This document shows, piece by piece, positions 41,398 to 59,808 of a stretch of 64,000 nt of DNA (position 1 is the stretch's first letter; each line of letters starts with the position of its first letter). A program made the position numbers and the translations under genes. The notes under the pieces are model-generated. The model searched no databases and was not told the DNA's origin. It worked only from the letters and a program-made list of their open reading frames with translations. This stretch comes from a virus (Duplodnaviria > Caudoviricetes): the IMG/VR virus record IMGVR_UViG_3300032092_000009, positions 46,869-110,868 of that record, one strand, 5' to 3'.

Positions 41398-44300
41398 ATG
41401 CCTAAAGAACCTTTATACAACTTACCTCCTAAAAGTGGTATCTTAACTACTCGTACAGTAGAGTTAGGAAATACTGCAGCATCAAGGTCATTAGCTTATA
41501 ATGAGATTAGTGCTCAGAATACTAGTGCAAGGATAGCACAGGAAGCACAGCAGAAAGAAGCTGCTAGGTTAAAAGCAGCTAACGATGCAAAGGTTGATGG
41601 AGCATTAGAAGTAGCCGCTAAAATAAACTTAGAAACTGCAGGTGCTCTTAAACCTGGTACTTTTTTTCCTCCTCCATCTGCTAGAGGTACTATGGGTCCT
41701 CAGTTAACTGCTGAGTATCAAATGGTAAACCAAGAGAAGAATCGGTCTAAGCAAATCATCACCCAGAGTTTTGCTGAGAAAGATCCTATTTCTGAAGAGT
41801 TGAATAAAAAAATTGGGCAAGTAGAAGACGAACTAGACTCTATTGTTTCTAGTAAACAAAGCGGTTCACTAATGACTACTGGATCTTCTGCAGAAGTAGG
41901 TGGAAGTGCAGGTTTATTTTTACAAGACTTTATTAAAGAACAGGCACTAGGAAAAGATGTTAGTATAGAAAGAGAAAAGGAGTTAAGAAATACTCTTTCA
42001 AATCTTAGTCAAGCTCAAGTAAATATTAATAAGTTTAAGACAGACATTCAGTTAGCAAAAGCTACTGAAGACTATTTGCTTAATCTTAAAGGAAAAGGAC
42101 AGAAGCTAGATCAAAATACTATCAAAGGGCTAGTAGACGTATCTAAAGACATAGTAGCAAAACAGAGAGCAGCTACAAGAGGGGACGAATTATATAATCC
42201 TGATACTTACGAAACTTATATGACTCAGATTAAAGGAAACAATGATTTCTTTGACTGGAGGCATACTGATATTAGTATAGGAAGTACTCTTGAAGCTGTA
42301 CACAATAAAATTAAAGAAGATCCAAGTAAGGCAAAGGAATTAATACCTGTCTTAAACGAACTTCAAACTGCCTATAAGCAGCACGAGAAGACTAATAGGG
42401 ATGCTTATGATAACTATTACGGAGCACAAAAAAGGTATTTAAAAGAAGGAATGGCAGGTAGCACCTACCTGAAGAGTCAAGTATTAGGTTCTGCAGCTGA
42501 GGGTATTTATAACTTTACTTCTCCTTTTATTACTACTAGTTTAGATTTATTAGGTCTTCGTAAAACTGCATTTGAAGCAAGACAAGCTAAAGATAAAACT
42601 TATTCTGGTGCTGTATTGTATGCTGACCTTAATAAGGACCAACAACTTGATGAAAGAGATTGGGACATACACAAAAATTATCAACGAGTAGGACAAGACG
42701 TTACTTATATAAAACAAGATGGAAGTAGAGGATACCTTGCAGAGTCTGTTTTAGGTGCTTCAGTAAGAACATTAGCAGAAATGGCTCCAACACTTTTTCT
42801 TACTCGAGGATTAATGGGGGTTGGGATGGGAGCACGTGCTGCTACATTTCTTCCTGTTGCTGTCTCTTCTGGAGTAAGATCTTTTGAAGAGAATAAGAAG
42901 TGGTATAAAGATAAAACAAATGCTGCAGTAGTAGGAACTCTTCAAGGAATTATTGAAGGTGCTACTGAATCTATTGTTCCCGATATCAATTACTTTTTGG
43001 GTAATAAGAAACTTGCAACTAAGGCATTGGGAGCAAGTGAGAAGAAGTACTTTATTGCTCAAACTTTAGTTCCTGAATTTACTAATCTCTCTACCGCTGC
43101 TAAAAACTTTTTAACAAGTTCTGGTTATGCAGCAAAGGCTGTTGCCTCTCAGTCTCTACAGGAAGGATTTGAGGAAGAGATCTCTATGTTTGCTAATTAC
43201 TTTTTAGATAAAGTTTACAAAACCAAAGACGATCAGTTTGGAGAAAAGCCTCAAGAACTTGACGACTCTAGCATCTTAGGTTTTGGAAGTTCAATGATTA
43301 CAACATTTATTAACTCAGCTGCTTCTGGTCTACTTATGTCTGGCGCATCTATTGTAGCTTCTCGTAATCAAGATAGGAACTATATGCGATTTAACATTGC
43401 AAATAATCCTGAGTTATTTAAACAAGAACTTACTAAACAACTTCAAAACAAGCAGATTACTCAAGATCAATATAACAGAGGTATCTTAGAGACTGGTCGC
43501 TTAACTCAGTTGAAGGAACAGGCTAATAGTACTATGATGAATCTAGTTGATGCAGGTACATTGCTAGAGGACAAAGATCAACAGTATGACTACTTTTCTA
43601 GACTATTAACTAGGGATGACTTGTTACAAAAAGTAGATTACAACTCTCTGTCTGATGAAGACAAAGCAGAGTACGTTAAGCAAGTAGAGAAAGTAGAAAA
43701 AGAAATAAACTCTTACGAAAATCTAGCTAAGCAGTATGCTGAAATGCCTCAAGAAAAGAAAGAGGGGGTATTGGCTAAGATGGTACAGAGACAACTAGAC
43801 ACTATACAGAATACTAATAGTCCTGAAGCCCTCGCTAAAAACTTGGAAGACATTGATGATGCTATCCAGGTAGGTGAGAAGACGGGTAAAGGCTCTCCTA
43901 TTATGGTTTCTGGTAGACAGCAAATAAGAGAAGCTGTAATTGCTCGTATGGAACAATTACAAAAAGTTGAGGATAATGGTAATACTGTATTTGAGAATCA
44001 ACTACTAGACACTCCAGTAGAGTCTATGGGTGAGTCTATGCAGGTTAGCAATACTGTGCGTTTAGAGAAACTTTTGTTAGAGAATGATAGGATGGTTAGT
44101 CCTGCAGTAAAACAAGAGCTTAGAAGTCGTATAGCAAATGCTTCTCGTGTTGCACAAGAAAGACTTAACGAACTCCCTAAGAAAGAGCAAAGAAAAGTAA
44201 TTGCAAGAGAATTAGCACGTGTAGAACTCTTACATCCAGGTACTGCATTTAGTGATGAAAGACTTAAGACATTGTTTGGTATGGAGTTTACTCCAGAAGA

Positions 44301-46086
44301 AAAGTCTGAAGTGATTAGAGAAACTGCAGTAACTTTATCTAGAGAGAAAGAGAAGATTGAAGATGAGGAAGTACTGCAACCTGCAGAAAAGGATATTGTG
44401 ATGGATGCTTTGATTAAATCGTTTGAGTCTGAGCCATTAGAGATACAGGTAGAGAATGAACAAGGCAACCTAGAAAGAGTAAGAAATGAAGAAAGAGTAA
44501 ACAGAGAGAGGAGAGCAATCTTTGCTATTCCTAGATCTAAATCTAAAGACCAAGCTAAAGGTAGAATTAAATCTATCTTTAAGGCAATGGGCTATAGTTC
44601 TGAGGACATTAACAAGGCTCTAGAAGATATTAATAAAGTCTTTGATAATGAGGAAGTTACAGAACCTGGAGATATCTATAGTTCTTACTTAAGATTTCTA
44701 GATTCTAATTTGCTTAAAGGTTTACCTGACAAAGCAGTTACCGAGGAAGTTATAGTAGAAGAAGCTGTTGTAACACCAGAAACTCCTGGAACACCTACTG
44801 AAACACCTACAGAAGTAGTTGCTGAAGTAGTTCCTAGTACTACCGAAGAAGATGAGTTGTTTGGAACTAACGAGGAGATTGATGCTGCAAGAGAAAAGAA
44901 ATTAGGAATACCTGAAGTAGATCCTGCAGATCAAGTAGTAGTTGAGACTCCTGTTGTTGTAGAGGATGAGTTCGATGGCTTAGAGGTTGTTCCTGTAAGT
45001 ACTATCACCTCCCCTGAGTTAGTACATACTACTCCTACTGTATTTACTAGTAGTAATTCTGGAGTACAGGGTTCCATCATGAGGACTATGAGCAACTCTA
45101 TAGAGTCTTATAGTCTTAAGTTGATGGATATGTTCTCTTTTATTAGAGAGACTTTAGGCGAGTCAGCTATGTCTAGCCTAGAGAACATATATAATAGTGT
45201 AACAGAGGCGCTTAAAACGCAAGATAAAGAGGCTATTGATAAACTTAAAGAAGACTATTTGTCTGTATTTAGTGGAAGTACATTTGCTCCCGAACAATTA
45301 GAGTACATTTGGAATGAGCAATACGTTAAAGGTAAGCCTGATGCTTCTGTTCCGTTTCAAGAAGTAGCTTATGTTACTAACCCTCAGTTTGCATTAGCAT
45401 ACAAAGACGAGGAAGTAAGTGTTGCTGCAGTAAATAAAAGTACAGGAGAGTTGTTTGTCTACAAAGCAAAAGTAACAGGTAACGTAAATGACTCTAATCA
45501 GATTGAAGTTAAGACTGCTAAAGGTGCTTTAGTTTACGTTAAGAAGAGTAGCATTCAAGCTGGTAAGGTTATACCTATTAATGTAAGAGTTAACTTTAAT
45601 CAAACTAACTCTGTAATGATGACAGCAGTAGATAGGACTAGCGGAGAGATTGCTAAGTTTAATTCTAACGGAGAAAGAGATTCTCAAGGAGATACCCAGT
45701 TAAATGTATTTGCTCCTAAAGAAAATGCTACAATAAAAGAAGTAAAAAAGAATCTTGCTTCAGGTCAACCTATTGCTCATACTCTTCCTATTCACACAGG
45801 TCCTAGAATCAATACTGCTGCCGCTTATAGAAAAGGAAAGAACTCTGTTTACTTAACTGCATCAGTTGCAGGCATTGATACTAATATTCAGACAGTGACT
45901 CCAGTAGAGTTAGAAGTAGTGTCAGAGGTAGCAGTAGAGCCAGAAGTGACTACTAATTTAAATGCAGATGAATTAGCGATTCTTTCTTTTGATGTTAGTG
46001 CACTAGAGAACCTTGAGAGTGCTGCTGAGTCCTTAGATCAAAATACAGGACAAGAGATTGATAATGCAGGAAGCTGCAAACTTTAA
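41398..46086 (+). CDS. Large ejected cargo protein with membrane-interacting segments
   Basis: 1562 aa; Gly/Ala hydrophobic helices (TLFLTRGLMGVGMGA, SAASGLLMSGASIVA), EGATE and QEGFEE motifs. Confidence 0.65.
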   Translation: MPKEPLYNLPPKSGILTTRTVELGNTAASRSLAYNEISAQNTSARIAQEAQQKEAARLKAANDAKVDGALEVAAKINLETAGALKPGTFFPPPSARGTMGPQLTAEYQMVNQEKNRSKQIITQSFAEKDPISEELNKKIGQVEDELDSIVSSKQSGSLMTTGSSAEVGGSAGLFLQDFIKEQALGKDVSIEREKELRNTLSNLSQAQVNINKFKTDIQLAKATEDYLLNLKGKGQKLDQNTIKGLVDVSKDIVAKQRAATRGDELYNPDTYETYMTQIKGNNDFFDWRHTDISIGSTLEAVHNKIKEDPSKAKELIPVLNELQTAYKQHEKTNRDAYDNYYGAQKRYLKEGMAGSTYLKSQVLGSAAEGIYNFTSPFITTSLDLLGLRKTAFEARQAKDKTYSGAVLYADLNKDQQLDERDWDIHKNYQRVGQDVTYIKQDGSRGYLAESVLGASVRTLAEMAPTLFLTRGLMGVGMGARAATFLPVAVSSGVRSFEENKKWYKDKTNAAVVGTLQGIIEGATESIVPDINYFLGNKKLATKALGASEKKYFIAQTLVPEFTNLSTAAKNFLTSSGYAAKAVASQSLQEGFEEEISMFANYFLDKVYKTKDDQFGEKPQELDDSSILGFGSSMITTFINSAASGLLMSGASIVASRNQDRNYMRFNIANNPELFKQELTKQLQNKQITQDQYNRGILETGRLTQLKEQANSTMMNLVDAGTLLEDKDQQYDYFSRLLTRDDLLQKVDYNSLSDEDKAEYVKQVEKVEKEINSYENLAKQYAEMPQEKKEGVLAKMVQRQLDTIQNTNSPEALAKNLEDIDDAIQVGEKTGKGSPIMVSGRQQIREAVIARMEQLQKVEDNGNTVFENQLLDTPVESMGESMQVSNTVRLEKLLLENDRMVSPAVKQELRSRIANASRVAQERLNELPKKEQRKVIARELARVELLHPGTAFSDERLKTLFGMEFTPEEKSEVIRETAVTLSREKEKIEDEEVLQPAEKDIVMDALIKSFESEPLEIQVENEQGNLERVRNEERVNRERRAIFAIPRSKSKDQAKGRIKSIFKAMGYSSEDINKALEDINKVFDNEEVTEPGDIYSSYLRFLDSNLLKGLPDKAVTEEVIVEEAVVTPETPGTPTETPTEVVAEVVPSTTEEDELFGTNEEIDAAREKKLGIPEVDPADQVVVETPVVVEDEFDGLEVVPVSTITSPELVHTTPTVFTSSNSGVQGSIMRTMSNSIESYSLKLMDMFSFIRETLGESAMSSLENIYNSVTEALKTQDKEAIDKLKEDYLSVFSGSTFAPEQLEYIWNEQYVKGKPDASVPFQEVAYVTNPQFALAYKDEEVSVAAVNKSTGELFVYKAKVTGNVNDSNQIEVKTAKGALVYVKKSSIQAGKVIPINVRVNFNQTNSVMMTAVDRTSGEIAKFNSNGERDSQGDTQLNVFAPKENATIKEVKKNLASGQPIAHTLPIHTGPRINTAAAYRKGKNSVYLTASVAGIDTNIQTVTPVELEVVSEVAVEPEVTTNLNADELAILSFDVSALENLESAAESLDQNTGQEIDNAGSCKL

Positions 46087-46129: not shown

Positions 46130-49100
46130 ATGGCAAAAATAATCTGCCCTACCAGGGAAAATAAAGACTTTTCAAACTTAAGCAATGCTCTTGGTAGTGA
46201 TGCCTTGGCTAGATATGTATGGTATAAGAATAGCAATCTTCCTTTAAACTTAACTGAGGATGCTGAAGGTAATATTGTTTCTAGTGAGATCTACGATAGA
46301 ATCTTAAACGAAGTTGCAGATGGTAATGAAAGTCTTGCTTTAGGGATTACTGCTATCATGCACTATCCTAGCTTCCAAGAGAAGTATGGAGAAGAAGACC
46401 CTGCTTTTACTGTAGACTACATTAAGCAAGAAGCACAAGATAAAGCAGATAAAGCAGCTAAGAGACAAGCACAACTTCTTGAAGAAAAGATTATTCCAGG
46501 CACCAAGACTCTTTATATTCAGTCTCCTGAAGGTGATGTTATCTATACTCAAGAAGAAGGAAAAGAAATTTTTGACAGTCTAGAGTACCTTGCCTCTACT
46601 AAGAAGAGTTGGAAAGCAGTATTAGATGCTTTAGCAGAAAGATTTACAGACATCCAAGCTAAAATTAAGAATAGTGCAGTTGATCCTGAGTCTAATGTTA
46701 CTCCACAAGAAATTGCCATTGCTAAAAACTTAGTTAATATTCTTAAGAACTGGCCCCAAGTAAAAGCTTGGTATCTTAGTCAGGATACAAACTTTGGCTT
46801 AGAGTTGACTGAAGACGAAGTTAATCCAGATACAGGAGGAAACGTCTACAATAAGAATGCACATGATCGTAGTCAGATGGATCTAGCATCTGCTCAAGTT
46901 ATTAAACTAGTACAGTCTCTTCCCAAATACAATAAACTTACTACACAGAATCGTAAGGATGTAAAGTCAGGAAAGAAAAGTATTACTGATTTCCAAGTTA
47001 TAAGTAACCTTACAGGTTTTCCTATTGTAGGAAACTTCTCTACTAACTGGAATGTACTTACTTCTAGTTTATCTGGAATTACTAAGTACGATAAGATTCT
47101 CGAAGAGTTGACAGTTGTTGCTCAAGAATATCCTCAGTTTAGAGATTTGGTTAACATGCTTCCAAAGGAAGATGTACAAGATGTTGACTTGAATACAGCA
47201 AACTTTGTAGCCTCATTTGTACAAACAGTATCTCTCCCTGAGATTGCTGCTTACCAATTATCTATAGGTAAAAAGAATGACGGTAAACAAACTAAGGTTG
47301 TTACTAAGACCTTTCAATTAGGTACTAGAACAGTTGACAACCTTATTAAGTATTTTGACGAAGACTACTTTAGGTCTAATCCTAAATATGGAATGCTTAA
47401 CGATGAGGGAAAGACTGTACTTAACATCCCTAAGATTCTAGAAGACTTTGCCAATATTAAAGACATTAGGGCATTTTTTGCTAATGAAGGAGATATAAAC
47501 TCTGCTGAAGGTATAAAATTACTGTACAATATCCATAAGTTTTATAATGCTTTAGGAGTTATACCTACTAACGCTCTTTATTTAAAAGACAAAAAAGCAC
47601 TATATGCCTTCTTGAAGGACAATACTTTTCATGTAAGAGAACTTTACGATAAGTTAGAGGCAAGTAAAGATAACAAAACAGTTACTCAACCTCTTCAGTT
47701 TTTGTCTCGTCCTCAAGGAAGTGGAAAAGCATTAGGTCCTAAGTTTGATATCATTAACTCTATCGTAGGATACTACGGTAAGTTTGAAAGAGAGTTTGCT
47801 TCTGGTTCTTACTTTAACCCTGAAGACAAACTACAATACAATCGTGTACAATACTTCTATCTAACTCAAGTAACTAATGCACTTAACAATGTAGCAAGTT
47901 ATAACGAGTTAATTGCTATGCCAGAGTTTGCTCACCTAGACGTAAGATTGAATCCTAATATATTAGGTTCTGTATGGCTAGAGAGGATGTTTGGTATCAG
48001 CATTAAAGGTAAGACACCTGGCCAACTAAAGAAGGACTTGGATGCGGGTAAGCAGTTTCCTAGACTTAAAACTAAGTTTAGTAAAGAACCATTTAAGATA
48101 AACATTGTAAACTACTCAGGTCTGAGTATTGATGCAGATGTTAAGGAGGGTATAACTACTACTGAGCTTACCTCAGAAGATAAGATTGTACAAGACTTTT
48201 TATCTTTCTTTGGTTCTGGTATAGTTGAGAACATTCGTTTTGGTGATAAAGGAACTTCTTATGCTACAGTTACCTCAGGTAAGGTAGAGGAAAGGATTTA
48301 CATTCCTCTTAACTCTGACGTACTTGGTATGATGGAGAAGCCTAGTTCTGTTATAGAACAGTCTTTGGTAGATCAGTTTAATGCTTATCTTACTTCAGAA
48401 GTCTTTCGTGTACTTGCCGTAAACAAAGAAACTAAGAAGAATACATACACTAAGAATGGCAGACAGTTATTCTTATTTAAAGATATCATCCCTAAGGAAG
48501 ACTACGATGCTTTGACAAGTGAAGACAGTAACGTAGTAAAAGAAGCTTATGCAAGAGTATCTAGTAATCTTCCAACCTACTTAGGTCAATACTTCACTAA
48601 ACAGACTCAAGAGTATAAGAAGCGTCTGATGGATTCTGTACTTGGAGACAACACTGCTATCAAGACAACTATTACCGAAGAACAGAAAGAAGAACAATTG
48701 GTAAACTCTTTATCTGCTTTGGGATTTGTAGATCCTGCTTTATTTAAAAAGAATCAACTTACTAAGCAAAACTTAGACTACGTTATTGCAAACTACCTTA
48801 AGAATGACTTTATCCATAAAGCAGAGTTCATGAAGGTATTTGTAGGAGACATTTCTAACTTCCAAGTTAAAGGTGACTTCCGTGAGGTATTCAAACGTAT
48901 TCCTCTTACATCTTCTCCTGGCTTTATCTTCCAAGATAATCCAGTAGTGATGTCTCACTTAAACAATAGTAGTGCAACTAACGGACTACATAAAGCGCTT
49001 ACAGGAGCTGCACAGAAGTTCCGTAAGACTGTAAGGACTGTTATCTTTAATGATGTCAACACATTCAGTAAAGAAGACTGGCCTACTTATAGAAATGCTT

Positions 49101-52100
49101 TAGGTCTTCCTGATACCATGGAGTATCAAGAGTACGTAAACTCTCCTAAGGAAGCAGATGCACAGGGTTTAGTTAGTTTAGACTTCTATCGTAACTATCT
49201 TATTGGGTTAGGACAGTGGTCCCAAGAACAAGAGAATGCTTACTTAAATGAAATCGAGATCTTTAAGATCCTTAACAAGACTGAGAAGACAGAAGAAGAC
49301 TACGCTAAAATGCAAGAACTAAAAGCTAGCATGAACTATGTAGGTTTTCCTCCTTTGAAGTTAGGTCACTATGGTCCTATTGTAGAGGATGTTAAACTTA
49401 CTGCATTACATAAGTATTCTTTGGCTCCTATGATTCCTTCTATGATTGCTGGTACTCAGTTAGAGGAATTGAATAAGCAAATGATTGCTAAGCAGATTGA
49501 CTATGCAACATTCAACTCAGGATCAAAAGCGTCCAATTTTGGAGACGCTTTGGACTTTTATGTACCAGATGCAGACAATGCAGGCACACTTAAAGTGAAT
49601 CCTGACATCAAGGGAAACAACGTTACCACTCTACACTTGACCAATCTTAAACAACAGCAGTACATTGCTCCTAAGTTTAAGAACGAAGCTACTCTAGCTA
49701 CTCAGATGGTTAAGCTTATCTTTGGTGACTTCTTTGCTCAGGGTAACTTATCTGATCTAAATGCTAGTACTGCTAAGAATATCTCTGACCTCTATAAAGA
49801 CTATACCAGCATACTAGGGAATATCATTGGAGCAGAGGAAGCAAACTTGTTTAACAAGTTAGGTATTACTAAAGATGCTCAAGGTAACTTTGTAAACTTT
49901 GATAACAAGAAGTTCTACAACTTCCTTAAAGGAGAGTTGGATAAAAGAGATACTAGTGCTTCTCTTAAGCGTTATATCCAATTAGATGAAGCTGGCAATA
50001 TCAAGTATCCACTTGACGCTACTAAGAATAGAGCAGAGATTGAAAACATCTTACTGTCTATTATTAATAACAAGATTATCTCTCAGAAGATTCACGGAGA
50101 GTCTTATGTTCAGATGGCATCTACTGCTCAAGGTAACACAAGATTCACTAAGCCTACTGAAGAACAAATTAAAAAGTATGGTATCAACGGACTACGATTC
50201 TATCGTAAAGGTCCAGAGGGTACAGAACCTGCAGATGTAAAGATTGCTTTCAATCCTAAGAAGCATGCAGGTCTACTTAATCTTACATTTAAAGGTAAGA
50301 AGATTGGAACTATAGATAACCTTAACAAGATTCTTAAGTCTAGTAACCAAGATGCTATTGATTGGGTTAACCAACACAGTAAGAAACTAAGTTTAGTAGG
50401 TGTACGTATTCCAGTACAAGGTCTAAACTCTATGGAGTACTTCCGTGTAAGAGAGTTCTTGCCTACTAGTGCAGGTCCTGTTATTGTTGTTCCTGCTCAG
50501 ATTGTAGTTAAGTCTGGATCTGACTTTGACATTGATAAGTTGACAATGTTTGAACCTAAGTTAACTGCTAACGGAGAGTTGGTTGATGACGGAGGATTCA
50601 CTCTTAAAGATTACAATGCTAATCTTCCTAGCCAAAAGGAGTCAATGAGAATGCTTAAAACTCTTACTGAGGTTAAACAAGCTTTGGTAGAAACTTTAGC
50701 AGCGACTCCTGCTTACGTTAATAAAAAGCAATTAGAAAAAGAAATCCAAGAGTTGACTGAGTCTATCTCTACTACAGAGGAAGAGATCAGCAAGTTCTCT
50801 AATAAGAAGATGAACTTGGAAGAACTTCAGGCTTTGATGTCAGAAGGATCTAACGACAAAGAAAACTTAATTAAACAAAAGATTGAAGAAGCAAAAGCTC
50901 TTGTTAGAACAGGTGACCTAGCAGCTTCACTTCCTGTTCTTAAGTCTCTTAAGTCAGAGATTAACGATTACGTAAGTACAGTTAACGGAGTACAAAACTT
51001 CAAGCAAGCTAACATCAACAAGTTGATAGATGTATTTAGTTCTGTTCTTTCTATGAAAGAGAACTACGATAAGCTTGTACTTCCTAATACTAACACAGTA
51101 TTGACAGAGATCTCAGATAAGCTACAAGCTAATCCTATCACTTCTACTGAGTTGTTTAGTCCTCTTACATCTAATCGTGTATATGGAGATAATATCGAGT
51201 CTAAGAAAGCCTTAGGTATTGATGCTAAACTTAACACAATGCAGAAGGAGTTCCAGATTGCAGGACTAATTTACACAAGTGAATTTGCTAGTATGTATCC
51301 TTTTGCTGCTAACCGTGTAGAAAAGGGTATTAGTTTAGGTGAGAAGACTCTTACTGATGGTACCTCTATCTCTAGAGTAATTAGTGAAGCGATTAACGGG
51401 CACGTAGATATTGCAAAAGAAGATTGGATTATCTTGTTGGGATTAGATAAAGCTAAGACTCCACTATTCCACTCTATGATTCTTGCAGGTACCCCTGTAA
51501 AAACTGCCTTAGACTTTTTGAATAAGCCAGTAGTTAAGCACGTACTTAAAGAGTCTACTAGAGGACCTTTGTTCAAACAGCTAGGAGTTAGAAGAGGAAG
51601 ACTTGTTAAGATGACTTTCAAAGAAGTCTTAATGGATACTCTAAAGAGTCTTAACATATCTAAAGAGGCAATAAGTATTGTTAATAGTTCTATTGTTAGT
51701 GACGAGAGTGGAACTATAAAAGTAAAACCTACTATAGAAGCTTTGAATATAGCTTTGAATGAAGGTAATTTTGCAAATGAGTCAGATGCTTCTCAAGTAA
51801 AAGATATAGTAGATCTGTTTGTAGTTAAGGAAATGCAGAGTGCTATACAACAGTTGACTGGCTTGGTAGACTATAACACTAGAAGATTCCAAAACTCTTA
51901 CCAAGTTAAAGCAGATAAGATTAGTGCAGCAAAGATTCAAGAGAGTTTTAATGCATCAGGACTTGACAAACTAACTAATAAGTCTGCTCTTTCTAAGTTT
52001 AATCAATCTAACACTATTGAGTCTTTGATGCCTCAAGTGTTTGATGTATCAAATCATCCTAGTGTGTTAGATGCTATTACAACTTATTCTAATAACGCTG

Positions 52101-53224: not shown

Positions 53225-53228
53225 AGAT

Positions 53229-53747
53229 ATGGCAAGTTGCGATTTAAAAACAACAAACAGAGAGTACATGATTGCAAAGGGAGCTATAGTACAAGGTTCC
53301 CTTAAGATACCGAATGAACGTCTATTCGATCTACATAATGCAGAGATCAGAGATTCTGCTAACCAACGTTATAATTTAAATAACGAGGAACTTCCTTTTA
53401 CTAAAACTGAAAGACGAATTACTAGAAACGATTATCTTAGAAGAGGGTCTGACTACTTTGTAGAGTGGGGATTCAATGATAAGTTCTTTGATAATATTAG
53501 ACCTATAGTAGAAATGTACAAGTCTTTTGATGAGGATATCTACGATGAGACCCCTACTACTATCCCTACTTACAGTCAAATGCAGATTTCCTTTGAAGAA
53601 AGCATAGACGATAATATCATAGTAAAGGAAAGTCCTATTAGGACAACCTTTCCTTACGAAGCCGAAGACTATCTTGCAGATGTTAAGGCAGAAACTAAAG
53701 CCAACTTAACTAGACTTCAGTTTAAAGAAGAGGCTTGTAATATTTAA
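53229..53747 (+). CDS. Small protein between RNAP and zincin cargo (possible linker)
   Basis: 172 aa with Cys only at position 4 and third from the end. Confidence 0.65.
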   Translation: MASCDLKTTNREYMIAKGAIVQGSLKIPNERLFDLHNAEIRDSANQRYNLNNEELPFTKTERRITRNDYLRRGSDYFVEWGFNDKFFDNIRPIVEMYKSFDEDIYDETPTTIPTYSQMQISFEESIDDNIIVKESPIRTTFPYEAEDYLADVKAETKANLTRLQFKEEACNI

Positions 53748-53778: not shown

Positions 53779-56700
53779 ATGTCCTGTAAAGCAACTATAA
53801 AATCTCCTATTACTGGTAAGACAGTGATGTCTACTACATATTACCAATTGACTAATGTATTCGATAAAGAGAAAGCAGTAGATATCTATAATAGTATGTA
53901 TACTCCTGGATTCCAAGATCTTCTTGGTTTTGATTGGACTACCAACAAGGAGTATAGAGAAGAACTTAACTTAAATGGAGAGCCTAAAATTGAGTATCTT
54001 AATGAGATTCTTGGATTAGAACTATCTGATTATCAATTAGATGCAATCAATTCTGAGGAAGATGCTTTGACTCAGTTGGATCCTATGCAGGAGTTTCCTA
54101 CATATGATGAAGCTGTATTAGTTGCAGCAAACTTTAATCTTAATCCAAGATACAAGAACATTTCAGCAGAAGTAGTTCGTACAGACAAAGGCTTTAGGGT
54201 GTCTATTGGGTTGTTTAAGGCTTCTGGTATAGAGTCTAAGGAGACCTTAAGTAAACTTAACTTTGGTGAAATTATTTCTCAGTTCTTTCCAAATAGTAAC
54301 TCTAGTTGGGATGATGTAGTATCTGGTTTGCTTACCAGTGATAGACTTTCAGACACTCAGAAGACCGTTCTTTCTAAATTAAAAGAACTTCAAGACATTA
54401 ATCCTAGTGTAAAACTAGTAATCTTTGACGATACTGATTCTATGGATGCAGGTCAAGTTGCATTCTATGATAATAACTCACGCACTATCTACATAGGTAA
54501 GACAGTAAGTGAGAGCATGGATGATTCTAAGCTCATTACAGACCTCATCCACGAGTCTATGCACGCTTACACCATTAAGGCTTTGAATGAACCTGTTACA
54601 GATCAGGAGAAGGCATTTAAGGCAGAGATGGAAAAGGTATACAACTCTTACTTGAAGAAGTTTCCCAACCTAGTTGTTAACTACGGGTTTACTAACGTAG
54701 AAGAGTTTGTAAGTGAGGTAGTATCTAATCCTCATTTTAGAGCAGCATTAACTACACAACAAGAATCTCTTAAGGAAGATAAAGGCTTTTTAAGGAACAT
54801 GTTAGAGAAAATAACAAACTTCTTAAAAGGTTTGTATACAGATTTACCTAACATAGAACAGATTGATTCTACAATCAATAGCTACTTAGATCATTTGATT
54901 GAGACCAGGGATATGCCTATTACCCAAGGAGAATACGATCTAAGATTTAAGAGTGAGAAGTATAATCCTAATGGCCTTACAGATCTAGAAAGATTTCCTG
55001 AGTTGCAGAAGTTCGTAAACTTTATTAATAAGAATACTTCTAGTAAGATGTGGGGACAGATTACACAGTCTCTTAAGGAGATTGATGCTACTCTTAGAAG
55101 TACAGGAAGACTACAGGAACGTTTTAGTGACATCAACTCTACTAACGCTAAAGATATTCTAGCTAATACAATTGCTTATCTTAACACAGCTCTTACCACC
55201 CTTACTACTGTACAGAATCAACTTGATTTGTATAAGAAGAATGCTTCAGAGTTTGAGGACTTTGCTATTATTAAAACTTTTAACTACGCTAAGAACTTAA
55301 GCGGAGTAATCAGAGAGCAGATCAATGAATTCGAAAAAGAGTTTAATGCTATCTTTAGTTTAGAGGATATAACAAACATGCAGGATAGAGCTACTGCACA
55401 AGAAGCTCTTGAACTGGCTATTCCTGATTATGCACAGGTAGTTAAAGAACTTATGCAGACTATTGAAGAGACTCGTAAGTTAGCAGACTCTATTGATAGC
55501 AACTATAACAATGCAGTAATTGCTCCTATTGCTAGGGAGTTGGCTGCTTCTTTTGGTGAAGAAGCTACAGTAGAAGGTAAGAAGAGAGTAAAAGAACAAC
55601 TTACTGCTTTGACTGCGGCTAAAGCCAAGGCAGATGCTAATGGTAAAACTGCTTTATCTAAAGTACTTGCCAAAGAGATCGAAGACCTAAGACAATTAGA
55701 AAGATTTATTCCTACTGCAAAGAACATCGAAGAACTTCTTAAGAACGATAAGAAGTACGGAAGGGAGACTAGCTTTTTGGGTATGTGGATTAACAACGCA
55801 GTACAAGGAAAGAATCCTACTGTACAGATTGTTAAACAGTTTATTGATAAGGCTACCGCTGAAGCACAGGTAAACTCAGGTAAGTTTAGTAAGCGTGCTC
55901 AAGATATCTTTGATAGACTTCGTAACCTAAGAGGTAAGTTGGCTACTGAAGGTATGACTTATCAAACTCTTTACAAAGGGTTTACTAGGGTAGTTGAAGT
56001 TCTACATAAACAACCAGATGGTTCTCTTAAGAAAGTAAAGCAAGCAGTACTAAACACTAAATTAAAAGAAGAGGAATTCCAAAATGATCTTAAACTTCTT
56101 TTAGAAAGAGAAGAGCAGGCTATTAAGTCAGGTGATCAATCTGCTATAGATAACACTAAGGCTGCTACTAATAAATTCCTAGAGGATTACGCTTTACGTC
56201 CTTATACAGACGAATACTATAAGATTCAAGAGTTACTTACTGAAGAAGCAAAAGAAGCTAGGGAAGCTATCTTGTCTGAGATTAACTTCTTATCAGAAGA
56301 TTTAAATCCTGATGAGACTACTAAGGATGAGATTAAAAGATTGTTGACTGAGTTTAATCGCTTAGGTTCTTTGTACTACTCTAACGGAGATGAGAAGCCA
56401 GTAGGAAGTAAAGACAGAAGAGTAGCAGAGTCAATCATTGCGTGGAAGAAGGAAAGAAATAACCAAGATGTACTTACTTATGATAACGTTAGTAAGCGTA
56501 AGCAGTGGCAGATACAAAAGAATGAAATAGACGAAGAGTACAATAAAATCCTTAAGAGGAAGAATGCCTCAGATATTTCTATGTCTATGAGAGCATTTTC
56601 AGACTTGCAAGACGATAATCTTGCAGAAGAGAACGAAAAAATTACTAAGGAGTTTGAAGAAGCAAAGAAAGTAAGGGATCAGTGGTACGAAGAGAATACT

Positions 56701-59700
56701 AGAACAGAAATCTCTCCAGAGTTTTACAGAGAGCAAGAGGCTATAACAGATTCTATTAATGCTATTCTTAGTAGGTATCCTTCTTTAGATGCAGAAGACC
56801 TTACTGAGGCTTACAAGAGATTAAACAACGCTATCTTAGGCTTTAGAGATAATGACGGAGCTATTCAAGGTAATGATGTAGTCAATGCAGGTAATTTGTT
56901 TCAGACAGTTAAAGACATAGAAGCAGAGATAGAAGACATCAAGAAGTATGCAGAGGCAAGAGAGTTAAGTGCAGATGATAAGTCAGAGTTAGGCAGACTG
57001 TATAAAATGCTTAATGCTTTGCAGGGTAGAAAAGAAACCCAATACTACAAAGACAAAGTAGCAGAAGTCCAAGCAACAATCAGAACAGAGGTATCTCAAG
57101 ACCAAGAGTTCATGGATTCGTTGGAGGAGAAAGCAAAGACAAGAAGAGAGACTTACATTGCAGCACAGTTGATGAGTACATTTACAACTGTAGAAGAAAT
57201 AAAACAAACAATCCTAGAAGAAGAAATAGACGATAGATTTAGAGCAAGTCAGTGGTATAAGGACAATCATATTGTTACCGAAGAGGTAAAGATAGTAAAC
57301 GGAGACACAGTAACTACAACTAAAGAAAGACCTTCTTATATCTGGACTCAGATTCTTCCTAAGGATGCTCGTCACATTATTGAGGACGCTCCTTCATTCC
57401 AATGGTCTATACCTGTAATTGACGATAAGTTCAAGAACAAAGACTACAGATTTACTTCTGAACCTAGACCAAGAGAGACTTCTGATGGTAAATACTCTAA
57501 CCAAGAGTACTACAGCCTTCCTTCTCAAGAGAGAGCAATTCTAGATGAAATTATCTCTTTACACGAGGACGTACAGAAAGAGTTGCCTAAGAGTCAACGT
57601 ATCGGATACTCTCTAGTAAATGAGAACAAGACAGCATTTGAGACTTTATCTAATGTTTTCAGAAGACCTCTTGATACTTTCTCAGGTATCTATGAGTTGT
57701 TTAAGTTAGCTTTTGTACCTAACATAGGTTCTAGTCAATACGAACAGTTAGACGAGTCTGAGGTAGAGACTATCTCAGGAAGAAAAGTACAATTGATTCG
57801 TAGTCGTTACAAAACTCCATTGAATACAGATCAGGTATCTTATAATATCTTGGGTAATATCGCTAAGTATGGAGTTTACTCTTCACACTTTGCAGCTATG
57901 CAAAAGATTATGCCTACTGTCTTCAGCACTAGAGATGCATTAGAAAGAAACAAAACTGCTGAAAGTACTTTGTCTACAGTAGACTTTGAAATCTCTAAGA
58001 ACTTCTACGGAGAAGAGATTAACTCAATGGGTAATACAAAGTTTGTTAAACTTCTTACTCGTCCTGCCAACAAGTTTTTGTCAGTAGGTCAACGTAAAGC
58101 TTTGCAGTTTAACGCAATTGCATCTATTAAGAACTTTGCAGTCAACTTATGGAATGCAGGAATAAATGCAAATCTAGCAGGCGTAAGTAGACAAGAATTC
58201 ATTCAGGGTATGTGGAGAGGACTTAAACAATCAGATAAGATGTTTGAAGTTTACAGAGGTGGAGGTAATGTTTCTTACTACGCAGACCTTTTAATGCACT
58301 TTAATGCTATGCCACAAGCACAACCTGGAGCTAAGGCAGATACTATTCATCAGACTATGTTGAATAGATTTGTATCTAGTGAGACTGCAGGTTTTGTAAT
58401 TCGTGGATACTTGGAGAGTATTTCTACTATTGCTGTATTCGAGTCTATCATGAATCAGTACAATGTTCAGATTGAAGAAGGTGGAACAACAAGAACTATT
58501 AAGTTAGCAGAAGCATATGAACAAGTAGACGGTAAACTACAGCTTAAAGCTGGAGTAAAAGTAGAGAACATATCTCGCTTAGAACAACAGATCAGAGATA
58601 GAATCTTTAATTACTTTACCTCAACACAGGGTAACTACTATAAGAGAGGGTCAGCTCAATACGAAAGATATATTCTTGCAAGAATGGTCATGAGTATGAA
58701 GCGTTGGTTAGCTACTACATTTAATAATAAGTATGGATCAAGAAGACTCCAGTTAAATACAGGTAACATAGAGAAAGGATTTAACAGAGAAGTTGGTTCT
58801 TATTTAAAACTACTTGCTTTGGGTGGTAGTTCTATGGCTAACCAGACAGTTACAGATCAACAAAAGTCTAGGATGCGTACTGCAGCTACCAACTTAGTGG
58901 GTATGCTTGCTATACAACAAGCCTTGATCACTACTATGGGTATCATAGCTAAGTCTTTAGATCCAGATGATGAGGAGAGCACTAGTCCATTCTTAGCGTT
59001 TATTGCTAACTTACTTCAAGGTATACATGACGAGTTAACTACCTTTAGTCCTATAGGGGCAGCAAACTGGGCTTACAAGTCATTCTATCAAACTCCTACC
59101 AAACAACCAGGAGAGAGTAACACAATAGCAAGAGGTAAACAGTTAGGTTGGAGTGTTATTGGTGGTACAACTAAAGCTTCCTATGATGCATTGACTCCTT
59201 TGTTTGATGGAGATACTTGGTCAGATCCTTTTGGTTCTTTCTCATATAAGTATGCTAATGGTCTTCCTAACTCATTCAGTACTCCTAAAGCACTGTATGG
59301 TAAGCCTAATCTACTTGCAGCTTTCATGATTTATACAGGAGCAGAGTCAGGTATGAGTCAATTCCTACAGCCAGAGAAAAAGCTTTATACTGTATTGAAA
59401 TACAACCCAAGGTTAGACTTAACGGAAGAAAGAAGGATTAAACTAGATCCTATGGGAAGCTATAACCAATTGAGCGAGAGAGTGTCCGAGATTAAAAAAG
59501 AGTTAAAGTCAGTAGATCCTTCAAAGAGAATCACAGATCAAGGAGAAAGAATAGAGAGATTTAAAGAGATTGCTTCCTTGGAGAGTAAGATGGAGATCAT
59601 AGGAATGCAGTATCCATACGTAGGAGCCTACTATAGAAATAGAAAGTTTGGTTCTTCATTGGGAAGTAGGGAAGCAGCGAGACTCAATAAGGAAATCGAG

Positions 59701-59808
59701 AGGTATCAGATGCAAAATAACCCCGAAGAATTCCTAAGAGATAAGCTGGAATCTAAAGTAGAAGGGTTAAGAAATAAGGTAGAATCAGAAAGACTAAGGA
59801 GAAAGTAA
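53779..59808 (+). CDS. Large cargo protein with N-terminal zincin metallopeptidase domain
   Basis: AFYDNNSRTIYI..LIHESMH...EEFVSEVVSNPHF; long helical body; hydrophobic C-terminal segments. Confidence 0.75.
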   Translation: MSCKATIKSPITGKTVMSTTYYQLTNVFDKEKAVDIYNSMYTPGFQDLLGFDWTTNKEYREELNLNGEPKIEYLNEILGLELSDYQLDAINSEEDALTQLDPMQEFPTYDEAVLVAANFNLNPRYKNISAEVVRTDKGFRVSIGLFKASGIESKETLSKLNFGEIISQFFPNSNSSWDDVVSGLLTSDRLSDTQKTVLSKLKELQDINPSVKLVIFDDTDSMDAGQVAFYDNNSRTIYIGKTVSESMDDSKLITDLIHESMHAYTIKALNEPVTDQEKAFKAEMEKVYNSYLKKFPNLVVNYGFTNVEEFVSEVVSNPHFRAALTTQQESLKEDKGFLRNMLEKITNFLKGLYTDLPNIEQIDSTINSYLDHLIETRDMPITQGEYDLRFKSEKYNPNGLTDLERFPELQKFVNFINKNTSSKMWGQITQSLKEIDATLRSTGRLQERFSDINSTNAKDILANTIAYLNTALTTLTTVQNQLDLYKKNASEFEDFAIIKTFNYAKNLSGVIREQINEFEKEFNAIFSLEDITNMQDRATAQEALELAIPDYAQVVKELMQTIEETRKLADSIDSNYNNAVIAPIARELAASFGEEATVEGKKRVKEQLTALTAAKAKADANGKTALSKVLAKEIEDLRQLERFIPTAKNIEELLKNDKKYGRETSFLGMWINNAVQGKNPTVQIVKQFIDKATAEAQVNSGKFSKRAQDIFDRLRNLRGKLATEGMTYQTLYKGFTRVVEVLHKQPDGSLKKVKQAVLNTKLKEEEFQNDLKLLLEREEQAIKSGDQSAIDNTKAATNKFLEDYALRPYTDEYYKIQELLTEEAKEAREAILSEINFLSEDLNPDETTKDEIKRLLTEFNRLGSLYYSNGDEKPVGSKDRRVAESIIAWKKERNNQDVLTYDNVSKRKQWQIQKNEIDEEYNKILKRKNASDISMSMRAFSDLQDDNLAEENEKITKEFEEAKKVRDQWYEENTRTEISPEFYREQEAITDSINAILSRYPSLDAEDLTEAYKRLNNAILGFRDNDGAIQGNDVVNAGNLFQTVKDIEAEIEDIKKYAEARELSADDKSELGRLYKMLNALQGRKETQYYKDKVAEVQATIRTEVSQDQEFMDSLEEKAKTRRETYIAAQLMSTFTTVEEIKQTILEEEIDDRFRASQWYKDNHIVTEEVKIVNGDTVTTTKERPSYIWTQILPKDARHIIEDAPSFQWSIPVIDDKFKNKDYRFTSEPRPRETSDGKYSNQEYYSLPSQERAILDEIISLHEDVQKELPKSQRIGYSLVNENKTAFETLSNVFRRPLDTFSGIYELFKLAFVPNIGSSQYEQLDESEVETISGRKVQLIRSRYKTPLNTDQVSYNILGNIAKYGVYSSHFAAMQKIMPTVFSTRDALERNKTAESTLSTVDFEISKNFYGEEINSMGNTKFVKLLTRPANKFLSVGQRKALQFNAIASIKNFAVNLWNAGINANLAGVSRQEFIQGMWRGLKQSDKMFEVYRGGGNVSYYADLLMHFNAMPQAQPGAKADTIHQTMLNRFVSSETAGFVIRGYLESISTIAVFESIMNQYNVQIEEGGTTRTIKLAEAYEQVDGKLQLKAGVKVENISRLEQQIRDRIFNYFTSTQGNYYKRGSAQYERYILARMVMSMKRWLATTFNNKYGSRRLQLNTGNIEKGFNREVGSYLKLLALGGSSMANQTVTDQQKSRMRTAATNLVGMLAIQQALITTMGIIAKSLDPDDEESTSPFLAFIANLLQGIHDELTTFSPIGAANWAYKSFYQTPTKQPGESNTIARGKQLGWSVIGGTTKASYDALTPLFDGDTWSDPFGSFSYKYANGLPNSFSTPKALYGKPNLLAAFMIYTGAESGMSQFLQPEKKLYTVLKYNPRLDLTEERRIKLDPMGSYNQLSERVSEIKKELKSVDPSKRITDQGERIERFKEIASLESKMEIIGMQYPYVGAYYRNRKFGSSLGSREAARLNKEIERYQMQNNPEEFLRDKLESKVEGLRNKVESERLRRK

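What the first reader, a model, noticed from the sequence alone, without database searches (positions are those of the whole stretch)
41398..59808. Terminal-only cysteines suggest head-to-tail chaining of four consecutive ejected cargo proteins, including the virion RNAP
Seen (manual scan): across 6107 aa there are only six Cys, all within 6 residues of a terminus. They form three matched junctions in gene order: 41398 ...GSCKL / 46130 MAKIICP; 46130 ...PFKC / 53229 MASC; 53229 ...EACNI / 53779 MSC. The first protein lacks an N-terminal Cys, the last lacks a C-terminal Cys, and the two upstream cargo proteins have none. The 46130 and 53779 N-termini also share a G..(V)S..Y..(L/I)...A...(Y)..P.FQ pattern. 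Established: the ejected N4 virion RNAP is Cys-free. Inference: disulfide or metal links join the cargo into an ordered train for packaging or ejection, released in the reducing cytoplasm, with the 172-aa protein acting as a coupler.
Basis: partly seen in the sequence, partly recalled or inferred. Interest (0 to 1): 0.8.

Follow-up and report, generated by a model that had tools for sequence, protein, structure and literature searches.

The report
Terminal cysteine pairs link crAss-phage cargo
In this crAss-like phage and its relatives, the giant proteins packed with the virion RNA polymerase have almost no cysteines except one at each end that faces the next protein, which suggests they are clipped head-to-tail into one thread for injection into the host.

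Summary
The four proteins (1562, 2364, 172 and 2009 aa) hold six Cys in 6107 aa, all at junction-facing termini (P = 1.7e-13).

It is a conserved rule, not a quirk of this phage:
- All 11 named crAss-like genomes I checked follow it, including phi14:2, crAss001, crAss002 and prototype crAssphage. Three of them need a start reassignment or an unannotated ORF.
- In 61 dereplicated IMG/VR loci, 55 of 56 junctions downstream of the polymerase have Cys on both sides.
- At the upstream junction, 24 have both, 25 have neither (fused genes or pseudo-breaks) and 1 is discordant; that one was resolved.
- Internal Cys frequency is 0.027%, against 0.99% in control ORFs.
- Chain ends are "capped", with no outward-facing Cys.
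- In crAss001 the first gene lies on the opposite strand, which rules out a DNA-level artefact.
- Fused homologues have no Cys at the fusion point.
- GIY-YIG homing endonuclease genes sit at some breaks.

Best reading (about 0.6): inter-protein disulfides re-join split cargo into one linear thread. The chemistry is untested. I found no paper describing this.

The parts
37305..39671 (+). Cys-free cargo protein (788 aa). It sits in the position of the crAss001 gp45/gp46-type cargo and is not part of the Cys chain.
   Evidence: 0 Cys; only a weak PHROG match of unknown function. The role is inferred from position only, using passages on crAss001 gp45/gp46.
39677..41383 (+). Cys-free cargo protein (568 aa), not part of the Cys chain.
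   Evidence: 0 Cys; no family. The role is inferred from position only.
41398..46086 (+). Chain protein A (1562 aa), the first link. Its single Cys is third from the C-terminus (codon 46075-46077) and it has no N-terminal Cys.
   Evidence: Residues 384-812 match the N-terminal part of fused A+B proteins in L065 and L047. It lies in the position of phi14:2 gp67 and crAss001 gp47.
46130..53224 (+). Chain protein B (2364 aa), the crAss-type virion RNA polymerase. Cys6 (46145-46147) and a C-terminal last-residue Cys (53219-53221). Catalytic GSDFDID motif at residue 1463.
   Evidence: 25% identity over 620 aa to phi14:2 gp66. Motif.
53229..53747 (+). Chain link c (172 aa) with Cys4 (53238-53240) and Cys170 (53736-53738). 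An extra link with no counterpart in phi14:2.
   Evidence: Both Cys are invariant in 5 of 5 relatives. No homologue in phi14:2, crAss001, FPSV or cr118 by BLASTP. The first 66 residues resemble the N-terminus of L071's D protein (32% identity, E = 1e-3).
53779..59808 (+). Chain protein D (2009 aa), the last link. Homologue of phi14:2 gp65, with HESMH at residue 258. Cys3 only (53785-53787) and no C-terminal Cys.
   Evidence: Residues 151-352 match gp65 residues 145-333 (30% identity, E = 5e-17). HExxH at the equivalent position. The N-terminal cap resembles the phi14:2 gp66 N-terminus (z = 7.5).

Best explanation
SHOWN
- The RNA-polymerase cargo module of this crAss-like phage and of Crassvirales in general follows a strict sequence rule. 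Cysteine is purged from these giant proteins, except for one Cys within about 6 residues of the N-terminus and about 10 residues of the C-terminus wherever two separately translated module proteins meet.
- The number of terminal Cys equals twice the number of polypeptide breaks.
- The outer ends of the set carry none.
- Fused versions carry none at the fusion point.

INFERRED
- The C-terminal Cys of protein i forms a disulfide with the N-terminal Cys of protein i+1. In this window the order is A, then the RNAP (B), then the 172-aa link, then D.
- This happens once the virion is outside the reducing cytoplasm. It turns the separate proteins into one linear thread of more than 6000 residues, functionally equivalent to the single 4000-5000-aa fused proteins of other crassviruses and to the single-chain N4 vRNAP.
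- Because the links sit at the extreme termini, the junction leaves only stubs a few residues long. The partly unfolded thread can then pass through the portal and tail channel in one N-to-C run, in fixed order and 1:1 stoichiometry.
- All other Cys are selected against because an internal cross-link would make a loop or branch that cannot be threaded.
- In the host cytoplasm the disulfides are reduced and the subunits separate.
- Breaks probably arise by gene fission, in some lineages through insertion of GIY-YIG homing-endonuclease genes. The Cys pair restores continuity.
For: Window
- Six Cys in 6107 aa, all junction-facing; P = 1.7e-13.

Named genomes: 11 of 11 show the junction pair.
- 8 comply as annotated under the survey's thresholds.
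- 2 (cr110_1, crAss002) comply only if translation starts at an internal M-S-C.
- 1 (cr10_1) needs an unannotated ORF, and its upstream Cys is at -11.
- phi14:2: gp67 has its only Cys as the last residue; gp66 has Cys at 3 and 2179 of 2180; gp65 has Cys 3 only.
- crAss001: gp47 has Cys -3 only; gp50 has Cys 5, 1334 and -9; gp49 has Cys 5 only. Here gp47 lies on the opposite strand from gp50/gp49.

Survey
- One search found 509 relatives and kept the best 80. These fell into 61 clusters at 80% identity or more.
- 55 of 56 scorable junctions downstream of the RNAP have Cys on both sides. At the upstream junction, 24 have both, 25 have neither and 1 is discordant, out of 50.
- The discordant L044 turned out to have its partners upstream, separated by inserted genes.
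- The 3 'neither' cases with a large upstream ORF are frameshifts or an in-frame stop, not real termini.

Cys density
- Module: 144 proteins, 342,741 aa, 169 terminal Cys and 93 internal Cys (0.027%).
- Control: 89 ORFs, 0.987% Cys; 7 of 89 have a Cys within 6 of the N-terminus and 8 of 89 within 10 of the C-terminus.

Capping
- 31 of 32 chain-first proteins lack an N-terminal Cys.
- 34 of 36 chain-last proteins lack a C-terminal Cys. The 2 exceptions there (L025, L092) have an extra ORF inserted before the next Cys-started protein; the 1 chain-first exception (L044) was resolved.

Fission and fusion
- FPSV-S29's fused 4419-aa protein has one Cys, at -2.
- L038's 3969-aa protein is collinear with phi14:2 gp67 + gp66 (3977 aa) and has one Cys, at -6.
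- L065's D protein is collinear with L021's link + D and has no Cys at the equivalent point.

Other
- Junction spacing runs from -10 to 524 nt, and both Cys codons are used.
- N-terminal cap modules move between chain positions.
- Disulfides do exist in crAss001 virions, in the tail and portal-vertex proteins. The ejection model there is N-to-C with partial unfolding (passages of PMC10172136).
- The three proteins are fused in some phages (passage of the bioRxiv preprint 10.1101/2020.03.07.982082).
Against: - No result here shows a disulfide or any covalent link. The chemistry is inferred.
- Phylogenetic independence is limited. The downstream B|D pair may be a single ancestral trait. On the core tree the upstream split/fused state needs only 4 changes (3 on well-supported branches). 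There are only 3-4 independent contrasts, all concordant, and the sign test (p = 0.25) cannot reach significance.
- Assembly takes place in a reducing cytoplasm. The phage record encodes no thioredoxin, glutaredoxin or DsbA, and the Erv1 search was uninformative. Oxidation would therefore have to be spontaneous or use a host factor, and specific pairing would need docking that has not been shown.
- Gut crassviruses keep 5-20 internal Cys per giant protein, so the purge is not absolute.
- Some junction Cys lie further from the end, which gives longer stubs: -9 in crAss001 gp50, -11 in cr10_1, and -18 or -19 in three A proteins.
- Orphan C-terminal Cys with no obvious partner occur in other cargo-region proteins: window 36452-37024, crAssphage gp47 and crAss002 gp30.
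- If fused forms are cleaved after packaging, as the preprint speculates, continuity may not be required.
Confidence: 0.6

Rival explanations
1. The paired terminal Cys bridge a metal ion (Zn, Fe or Cu), possibly with other ligands or a second copy of the junction, instead of forming a disulfide. The chaining logic is the same but the chemistry differs.
For: The same pairing, capping and fission evidence applies. A metal clip could form in the reducing cytoplasm, which avoids the oxidation problem. D carries a zincin HExxH motif.
Against: Each junction supplies only two thiols. No conserved His, Asp or second Cys sits next to them in the 83 tail/cap pairs printed. The number of terminal Cys scales as 2, 4, 6 with the number of breaks, which fits pairs and not a Cys4 site.
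Confidence: 0.12
2. The terminal Cys do not bond to each other. Each end reacts with something else, such as the capsid interior, the portal, the host envelope, or the zinc of the D protease as a cysteine switch. Alternatively the ends act as free-thiol redox sensors.
For: Orphan C-terminal Cys exist in neighbouring cargo-region proteins that have no N-terminal-Cys partner. crAss001 structural proteins use disulfides.
Against: This does not explain why Cys appear on both sides of each break and on neither side when genes are fused (49 of 50 concordant; the last resolved). It also does not explain why the outer ends of the set lack Cys.
Confidence: 0.12
3. Tail and cap dock non-covalently, and Cys is kept for packing or for transient, non-essential oxidation. 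The proteins travel as a non-covalent complex.
For: Tail and cap families recur together. The DPFKC tail goes with a C-[DN]-[LIV]-[KR] cap in the window clade and in L071. CxG tails go with CP caps in 9 of 24 cases versus 0 of 59 (the motif was defined post hoc and the test is not corrected for phylogeny). L023 and L021 share the last 22 residues ahead of the same D cap, even though the preceding roughly 1470 residues differ.
Against: Cys is the only residue kept at both positions across 25-98% identity, in proteins otherwise purged of Cys about 36-fold. A purely steric role would tolerate Ser, Ala or Val.
Confidence: 0.08
4. The middle proteins cyclise (their own N-terminal Cys bonds to their own C-terminal Cys), and the first and last proteins pair with each other. 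This would not give a linear chain.
For: Counting Cys alone cannot separate this from the linear chain in three- and four-protein sets.
Against: In two-protein sets the only possible pairing is upstream C-terminus with downstream N-terminus (14 complete and 22 incomplete two-protein chains). New breaks add a pair exactly at the break. A cyclised 2000-aa protein could not be threaded through a narrow channel.
Confidence: 0.05
5. Chance, annotation error, or a DNA-level signal at gene junctions that happens to encode Cys.
For: Many junctions are tight (median 3 nt). TGT dominates on both sides (72 of 83).
Against: P = 1.7e-13 in the window alone. The pattern holds with gaps from -10 to 524 nt. 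It holds across inserted endonuclease genes. It holds in crAss001, where gp47 is on the opposite strand from gp50.
Confidence: 0.01

Closest known systems
RNAP-associated cargo set of Crassvirales (phi14:2 gp67/gp66/gp65; crAss001 gp47/gp50/gp49)
   Same: The window's B is a gp66-type two-barrel RNAP with the DFDID motif. D is a gp65-type protein with HExxH at the same position. The gene block follows terminase, portal and head genes. The same terminal-Cys rule holds in these cultured phages.
   Different: The window has an extra 172-aa link with no counterpart in phi14:2. Its caps are swapped: the B cap resembles cr118's D cap, and the D cap resembles phi14:2's B cap. The papers I could read on these phages do not mention cysteines in the cargo. 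'cysteine' occurs 0 times in PMC10172136 and 0 times in the 2020 preprint. The final Nature version was not held.
Cys-suppressed ejection proteins of N4-like phages (Schitoviridae: N4 gp50-52, DEV gp71-73)
   Same: These are giant virion-packaged RNAPs and ejection proteins, strongly depleted of Cys. The published rationale is passage through the envelope (passages of PMC11445570).
   Different: In Schitoviridae the suppression is total (0.00075% in gp71 homologues, per that paper) and the polymerase is one chain. Here a defined set of terminal Cys is retained and conserved. The two polymerases are described as structurally distinct (passage of PMC13434306).
Interchain-disulfide AB toxins, in which a translocated chain is released by cytosolic reduction (recalled from general knowledge, not from a call)
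   Same: The proposed logic is the same: a disulfide tethers polypeptides during translocation through a narrow pore, and reduction in the cytosol releases them.
   Different: There is no homology. Here the proposed links are strictly end-to-end, number up to three in series, join separately translated proteins, and sit inside a phage capsid. None of this was tested here.
Genes-in-pieces made by homing-endonuclease insertion in phages, such as the split ribonucleotide reductase of a T4-like phage (recalled, not from a call)
   Same: Free-standing GIY-YIG endonuclease genes sit exactly between chain genes in L044 (two of them), L025 and L058.
   Different: In the recalled cases the pieces re-associate non-covalently. 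Here each new end carries a Cys. The window's own junctions hold no endonuclease gene (gaps of 43, 4 and 31 nt, from the coordinates).
Structural disulfides of the crAss001 virion (tail hub/ring proteins, gp57 dimer)
   Same: They show that crassvirus virions do contain inter-subunit disulfides (figure legends in PMC10172136).
   Different: Those are in ordered structural proteins. The RNAP-associated cargo was not resolved in that reconstruction. Extended Data Table 2 was seen only as a legend.

Membership tests
Crassvirales virion RNA polymerase (phi14:2 gp66 type) | Catalytic DFDxD motif within the conserved core | tested here: met
   GSDFDID at residue 1463 of the 46130-53224 protein. The D, D, D columns are invariant in the 5-sequence core alignment.
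Crassvirales virion RNA polymerase (phi14:2 gp66 type) | Sequence homology to gp66 | tested here: met
   tblastn E = 3e-15 over residues 876-1476. BLASTP 25% identity over 620 aa, E = 3e-24 against a 10-sequence database. phmmer of the whole protein against PDB sequences found nothing. The A1 profile hits 6vr4_A, but A1 contains phi14:2 itself.
Crassvirales virion RNA polymerase (phi14:2 gp66 type) | Encoded in the virion/cargo gene block | tested here: met
   Large terminase at 14513, portal at 16548, major head protein at 20309 and virion proteins lie upstream on the same strand.
Crassvirales virion RNA polymerase (phi14:2 gp66 type) | Physically packaged in the virion and ejected | not testable with these tools
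   Known for phi14:2 and crAss001 from proteomics (record annotations; passages). Inferred by homology here.
gp65-type RNAP-associated protein with zincin-like domain | HExxH motif at the conserved N-terminal-region position, plus homology to gp65 | tested here: met
   HESMH at 258 versus HEIMH at 245 in gp65. 30% identity over 205 aa, E = 5e-17. Pfam gave no hit.
Cys-free ejection proteins (Schitoviridae type) | Near-total absence of Cys over the whole protein | tested here: not met
   Internal Cys count is 0 of 6107 residues, but six terminal Cys are retained and conserved.
Cys-free ejection proteins (Schitoviridae type) | Homology to N4 gp50/gp51/gp52 | not tested
   No Pfam or PHROG family matched the four proteins, apart from one sub-threshold Pfam hit. 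No direct comparison with N4 proteins was run.
Disulfide-concatenated cargo chain (proposed here) | Cys on both sides of every true polypeptide break, and none at fusion points | tested here: met
   55 of 56 downstream junctions and 49 of 50 concordant upstream junctions. The exceptions were resolved. Fused proteins have a single C-terminal Cys.
Disulfide-concatenated cargo chain (proposed here) | Outer ends of the set lack Cys (capping) | tested here: met
   31 of 32 chain-first proteins and 34 of 36 chain-last proteins.
Disulfide-concatenated cargo chain (proposed here) | A covalent S-S bond between consecutive proteins in virions | not testable with these tools
   This needs non-reducing gels and disulfide-mapping mass spectrometry on virions.
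Homing-endonuclease 'genes in pieces' | An endonuclease gene at the break | tested here: not met
   The window's three junctions are 43, 4 and 31 nt with no ORF. The feature is met in relatives L044, L025 and L058, where 4 of the 5 intervening ORFs are GIY-YIG.

The most novel reading that the evidence does not exclude
Crassviruses build their injected transcription machine as a covalent 'train'. Separately translated giant proteins are joined end-to-end by terminal disulfides into a single thread of 6000 residues or more. Exchangeable tail and cap modules act as couplers that set the order of the cars. This lets the phage tolerate repeated gene fission, including fission caused by homing-endonuclease insertion, without losing single-file ejection. 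The host cytoplasm's reducing power uncouples the train. This would be a previously undescribed way of translocating several proteins through one channel, and it would operate in the most abundant viruses of the human gut.
Probability: 0.3. Interest if true: 0.9.

Novelty: new variant of a known kind. Interest (0 to 1): 0.8.

Why it matters
How crassviruses package and inject about 0.7 MDa of RNA-polymerase-associated cargo is an open question. The crAss001 reconstruction could not resolve these proteins. [quoted passage not shown]

The terminal-Cys rule gives a concrete hypothesis that can be tested immediately in cultured phages (phi14:2, crAss001, crAss002), using a non-reducing gel and disulfide mapping. 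It explains three things at once:
- why these proteins are fused in some lineages and split in others;
- why they are purged of cysteine;
- why the outer ends differ from the inner ends.

It also gives annotators a practical marker. M-x(1-4)-C starts and C-x(0-9) ends help place start codons, tell true gene breaks from frameshifts or introns, and find chain members that have moved elsewhere in the genome.

Tried and rejected
- Structure of the 172-aa link (AlphaFold2, 5-row alignment A2): mean pLDDT 39.4, unusable. No fold search was run on it.

- Complex prediction: vRNAP C-terminal 150 aa, the 172-aa link as scored partner, and D's N-terminal 200 aa. It returned 'no answer' (score 0.00, controls not folded). 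This counts neither for nor against binding.

- phmmer of the whole vRNAP against PDB sequences: 0 hits. The A1 profile found 6vr4_A, but only because A1 contains phi14:2.

- L023 as an unsplit version of L021's B + link: rejected. L023 matches L021's B only over residues 1-1204 and shares only the last 22 residues with the link.

- Search for a gp67-like protein in L044's record: nothing. Reading the upstream DNA directly found the partners.

- Phage-encoded thiol oxidoreductases: none found. The Erv1 control rang in no genome, so that one search says nothing.

- Nucleotide-level artefact: rejected (crAss001 strand arrangement).

- Split-intein or protein-splicing reading: rejected by inspection. 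Only 0-9 residues lie beyond the C-side Cys and 2-5 before the N-side Cys in most junctions, which leaves no room for intein halves.

- Independent-contrast test: only 3-4 contrasts, so it cannot reach significance. I report this as a limitation.

- Literature: searches found no paper describing terminal Cys or disulfide chaining of crAss cargo. These searches cover only the held library. Supplementary files were not opened. Extended Data Tables 2 and 3 of PMC10172136 were seen only as legends and may bear on disulfides and on proteomic coverage of the termini.

- Rows dropped:
  - Of the 80 loci, 19 near-duplicates were collapsed.
  - In one search, 5 of 61 representatives could not be scored at the downstream junction and 11 of 61 at the upstream junction, because ORFs ran off the locus.
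  - Control ORFs are mechanical ORFs of 100 aa or more, and some may not be genes.
  - In one search, L058's upstream 'both' was scored through the inserted endonuclease ORF (Cys at -18). Its real partner is the truncated ORF before it, which ends with Cys at -2.

Full report
**What is in the window.** The window is the last 64 kb of a 110,868-nt virus record estimated at 94% complete. On the + strand it carries a crAss-type virion module: large terminase (14513-16522), portal (16548-19001), major head protein (20309-21832) and several virion structural proteins. Two Cys-free ORFs follow (37305-39671 and 39677-41383), and then the four ORFs of the finding. The 2364-aa protein (46130-53224) is the crAss-type virion RNA polymerase. 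It matches phi14:2 g066, annotated 'Catalytic RNA polymerase subunit', and many Crassvirales at 22-28% identity. It is 25% identical to gp66 over 620 aa and has GSDFDID at residue 1463. The 2009-aa protein (53779-59808) is the gp65 homologue (30% over 205 aa, collinear from the N-terminus) and has HESMH where gp65 has HEIMH. The 1562-aa protein (41398-46086) occupies the gp67 position, and its residues 384-812 match the N-terminal part of fused A+B proteins. The 172-aa protein has no counterpart in phi14:2, crAss001, FPSV-S29 or cr118_1. No Pfam or PHROG family describes any of the four.

I checked the codons against the raw sequence. The probability that six Cys placed at random all fall within six residues of a terminus is 1.7e-13. 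At the Cys frequency of non-module ORFs (0.987%), about 60 would be expected.

**It is a conserved rule.** Three close IMG/VR relatives (88% and 69% identity in the 172-aa protein) keep every Cys. So does phi14:2 at about 25% identity. There gp67 (1797 aa) has its only Cys as the last residue, gp66 (2180 aa) has Cys at 3 and 2179, and gp65 (1421 aa) has Cys 3 only.

I then read ten more named genomes:
- crAss001: gp47 (2341 aa) has Cys -3 only; gp50 (2412 aa) has Cys 5, 1334 and -9; gp49 (1349 aa) has Cys 5 only.
- Prototype crAssphage (BK010471): gp45 has its last Cys at -2, and gp44 starts M-S-C.
- FPSV-S29: a 4419-aa fused protein with one Cys at -2, followed by a protein with Cys 3.
- cr118_1, cr53_1, cr6_1 and cr108_1 all have the pair.
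- cr110_1 and crAss002 have the upstream Cys at -2. The downstream M-S-C lies 14 and 32 residues inside the annotated start, so these two comply only if the start is reassigned.
- cr10_1 has Cys at -11, followed by an unannotated ORF starting M-K-I-I-C.

So 8 of 11 comply as annotated and 3 of 11 comply with these caveats. In crAss001, gp47 lies on the opposite strand from gp50 and gp49, yet it carries the matching C-terminal Cys.

**Survey.** A five-sequence vRNAP-core alignment (A1) retrieved 509 confirmed relatives from IMG/VR. The tool kept the best 80 (98-25% identity), which fell into 61 clusters at 80% identity or more. For one representative per cluster I took the first ATG of each ORF, with no tuning, and allowed TAG=Q or TGA=W where that gave a much longer polymerase ORF.

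At the junction downstream of the polymerase-bearing ORF, 55 of 56 scorable representatives have a Cys within 10 residues of the upstream C-terminus and within 6 of the downstream N-terminus. The exception, L092, has a ferritin-like ORF inserted and then an ORF starting M-L-C-P.

At the upstream junction, of 50 scorable representatives:
- 24 have Cys on both sides;
- 25 have Cys on neither side;
- 1 is discordant.

Of the 25 with neither, 22 are cases where A is fused to the polymerase. The other 3 (L052, L061, L068) have a large upstream ORF but are frameshifts or a single in-frame stop, not real ends. The discordant L044 was resolved by reading upstream DNA. There a 1311-aa protein (Cys -2 only), a 691-aa link (Cys 3 and -2) and the polymerase protein (starting M-A-C) are separated by two small Cys-rich ORFs.

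Other survey numbers:
- Chain-first proteins lack an N-terminal Cys in 31 of 32 cases. Chain-last proteins lack a C-terminal Cys in 34 of 36.
- Across 144 module proteins (342,741 aa) there are 169 terminal and 93 internal Cys (0.027%).
- The 89 control ORFs from the same loci and the window are 0.987% Cys. Of these, 7 of 89 have an N-terminal Cys and 8 of 89 a C-terminal Cys by the same windows.
- The N-side Cys sits at residue 3, 4, 5 or 6 in 36, 31, 12 and 4 junctions. The C-side Cys is the last to sixth-last residue in 76 of 83.

**Breaks versus fusions.**
- L038 is a single 3969-aa protein whose only Cys is at -6. It is collinear with phi14:2 gp67 followed by gp66 (1797 + 2180 = 3977 aa), which carry a Cys pair at their break.
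- L065's D protein is collinear with L021's 328-aa link plus D (offset 336) and has no Cys at the equivalent point. L021 has a pair there.
- In cr108_1 the gap in the polymerase gene falls inside the catalytic motif (GSD | YDID). This is consistent with an intron of about 290 nt, meaning no polypeptide break, and there is no Cys pair.
- The distance from the N-terminus of split polymerase proteins to the catalytic motif ranges from 1378 to 3045 residues. This suggests several break positions, although indels were not separated out.

**Origin of breaks.** Four of the five small ORFs sitting between chain genes (two in L044, one each in L025 and L058) are GIY-YIG homing endonucleases with NUMOD3 and HTH motifs. 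This suggests that endonuclease insertion is one way the giant gene gets split. The window's own junctions (43, 4 and 31 nt) hold no such gene.

**Connectors are modular.** The window's D cap resembles the N-terminus of the phi14:2 polymerase (z = 7.5, 0 of 300 shuffles). The window's polymerase cap resembles the N-terminus of cr118_1's last protein (z = 10.1). So caps move between chain positions. Tail and cap types tend to recur together, and L021 and L023 share a 22-residue tail ahead of the same cap despite different preceding sequence. These associations were defined post hoc and are not corrected for phylogeny.

**Limits.** The downstream pair may be one ancestral trait. Its persistence down to 25% identity in Cys-purged proteins argues for purifying selection, but it does not count as 55 independent events. 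On a core tree, the upstream split/fused state needs only 4 changes, 3 of them on well-supported branches. The independent-contrast test has 3-4 contrasts. All are concordant, and p = 0.25. Additional independent breaks, each with a pair, are the window-clade 172-aa link, the L021 link, the L025 link, the L088 link, and the L044 and L058 breaks. Nothing here shows a bond.

**Mechanism.** The rule has four parts: pairs at breaks, none at fusions, capped outer ends, and a purge elsewhere. It is what one expects if consecutive proteins are joined end-to-end by thiol chemistry into a linear thread. The published context fits this reading:
- Crass cargo is proposed to leave N-to-C with partial unfolding through constrictions narrower than 50 Å, and crAss001 virions contain disulfides (passages and legends of PMC10172136).
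- The three proteins are one polypeptide in some phages (2020 preprint).
- N4-like phages, whose polymerase is a single chain, suppress Cys completely (PMC11445570).

I put about 0.6 on inter-protein disulfides. The remainder goes to a metal bridge, reaction of each end with another partner, non-covalent docking, or cyclisation.

**Novelty.** Eight full-text searches, and term searches inside the two key crass papers I could read, found no mention of cysteines in the crass cargo. The final Nature version of the phi14:2 paper was not held, and supplements were not opened. Cys suppression in ejected proteins is known. A conserved terminal-Cys coupling rule appears not to be.

Noticed in passing
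window 36452-37024 (+): This 190-aa ORF ends with Cys as its last residue (...RWKC), plus Cys159, but the next ORFs have no Cys at all. Similar 'orphan' C-terminal Cys occur in prototype crAssphage gp47 (857 aa, only Cys at -2) and crAss002 gp30 (557 aa, only Cys at -8). A partner is unknown; it could be a homodimer or a tail protein.
   Followed up: partly
L096 13668-14282 and 16336-17121; L025 17645-18292; L058 471-1136: GIY-YIG/NUMOD3 homing-endonuclease genes are inserted exactly between Cys-capped cargo genes. L092 14479-14967 is a ferritin/Dps-like ORF at the same kind of position.
   Followed up: yes
L005 (cr108_1) 17365-17656: An insert of about 290 nt interrupts the polymerase catalytic motif between GSD and YDID. 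This is consistent with a self-splicing intron. The record annotates two separate CDS.
   Followed up: partly
window 5713-7611 (+) and 10427-11410 (+): The phage encodes a protein with a Cohesin domain and a T9SS C-terminal sorting domain (Por_Secre_tail), and another with a C-type lectin domain. The T9SS signal points to a Bacteroidota host.
   Followed up: no
window 30096-35159 (+): This 1687-aa virion structural protein has 26 Cys, 19 of them in the first 281 residues. That is a sharp contrast with the Cys-purged cargo, so the phage does not avoid Cys in general.
   Followed up: no
window 59907-60245 (+): A small ORF directly after the chain carries a vicinal Cys-Cys (residues 22-23). It recurs downstream of D in L014, L016 and L019, and a 106-aa ORF with Cys 44-45 recurs in L013 and L018.
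   Followed up: no
window 53075-53089 (residues 2316-2320 of the vRNAP): A second HExxH motif (HEAKH) lies 48 residues from the polymerase C-terminus. It could be chance. Only the Glu is invariant in the 5-row alignment.
   Followed up: no
L041, L072, L081, L091 (and cr6_1, cr53_1): These loci need TAG read as a residue to give an intact polymerase ORF. The recoded loci tend to carry more internal Cys (3-20 per giant protein) than most others.
   Followed up: no
L008 (cr110_1) 13187 and L094 (crAss002) 22161: The annotated starts of the giant polymerase fusion lie 14 and 32 codons upstream of a conserved M-S-C, which is the first ATG in prototype crAssphage gp44. The annotated starts are probably too early.
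   Followed up: partly
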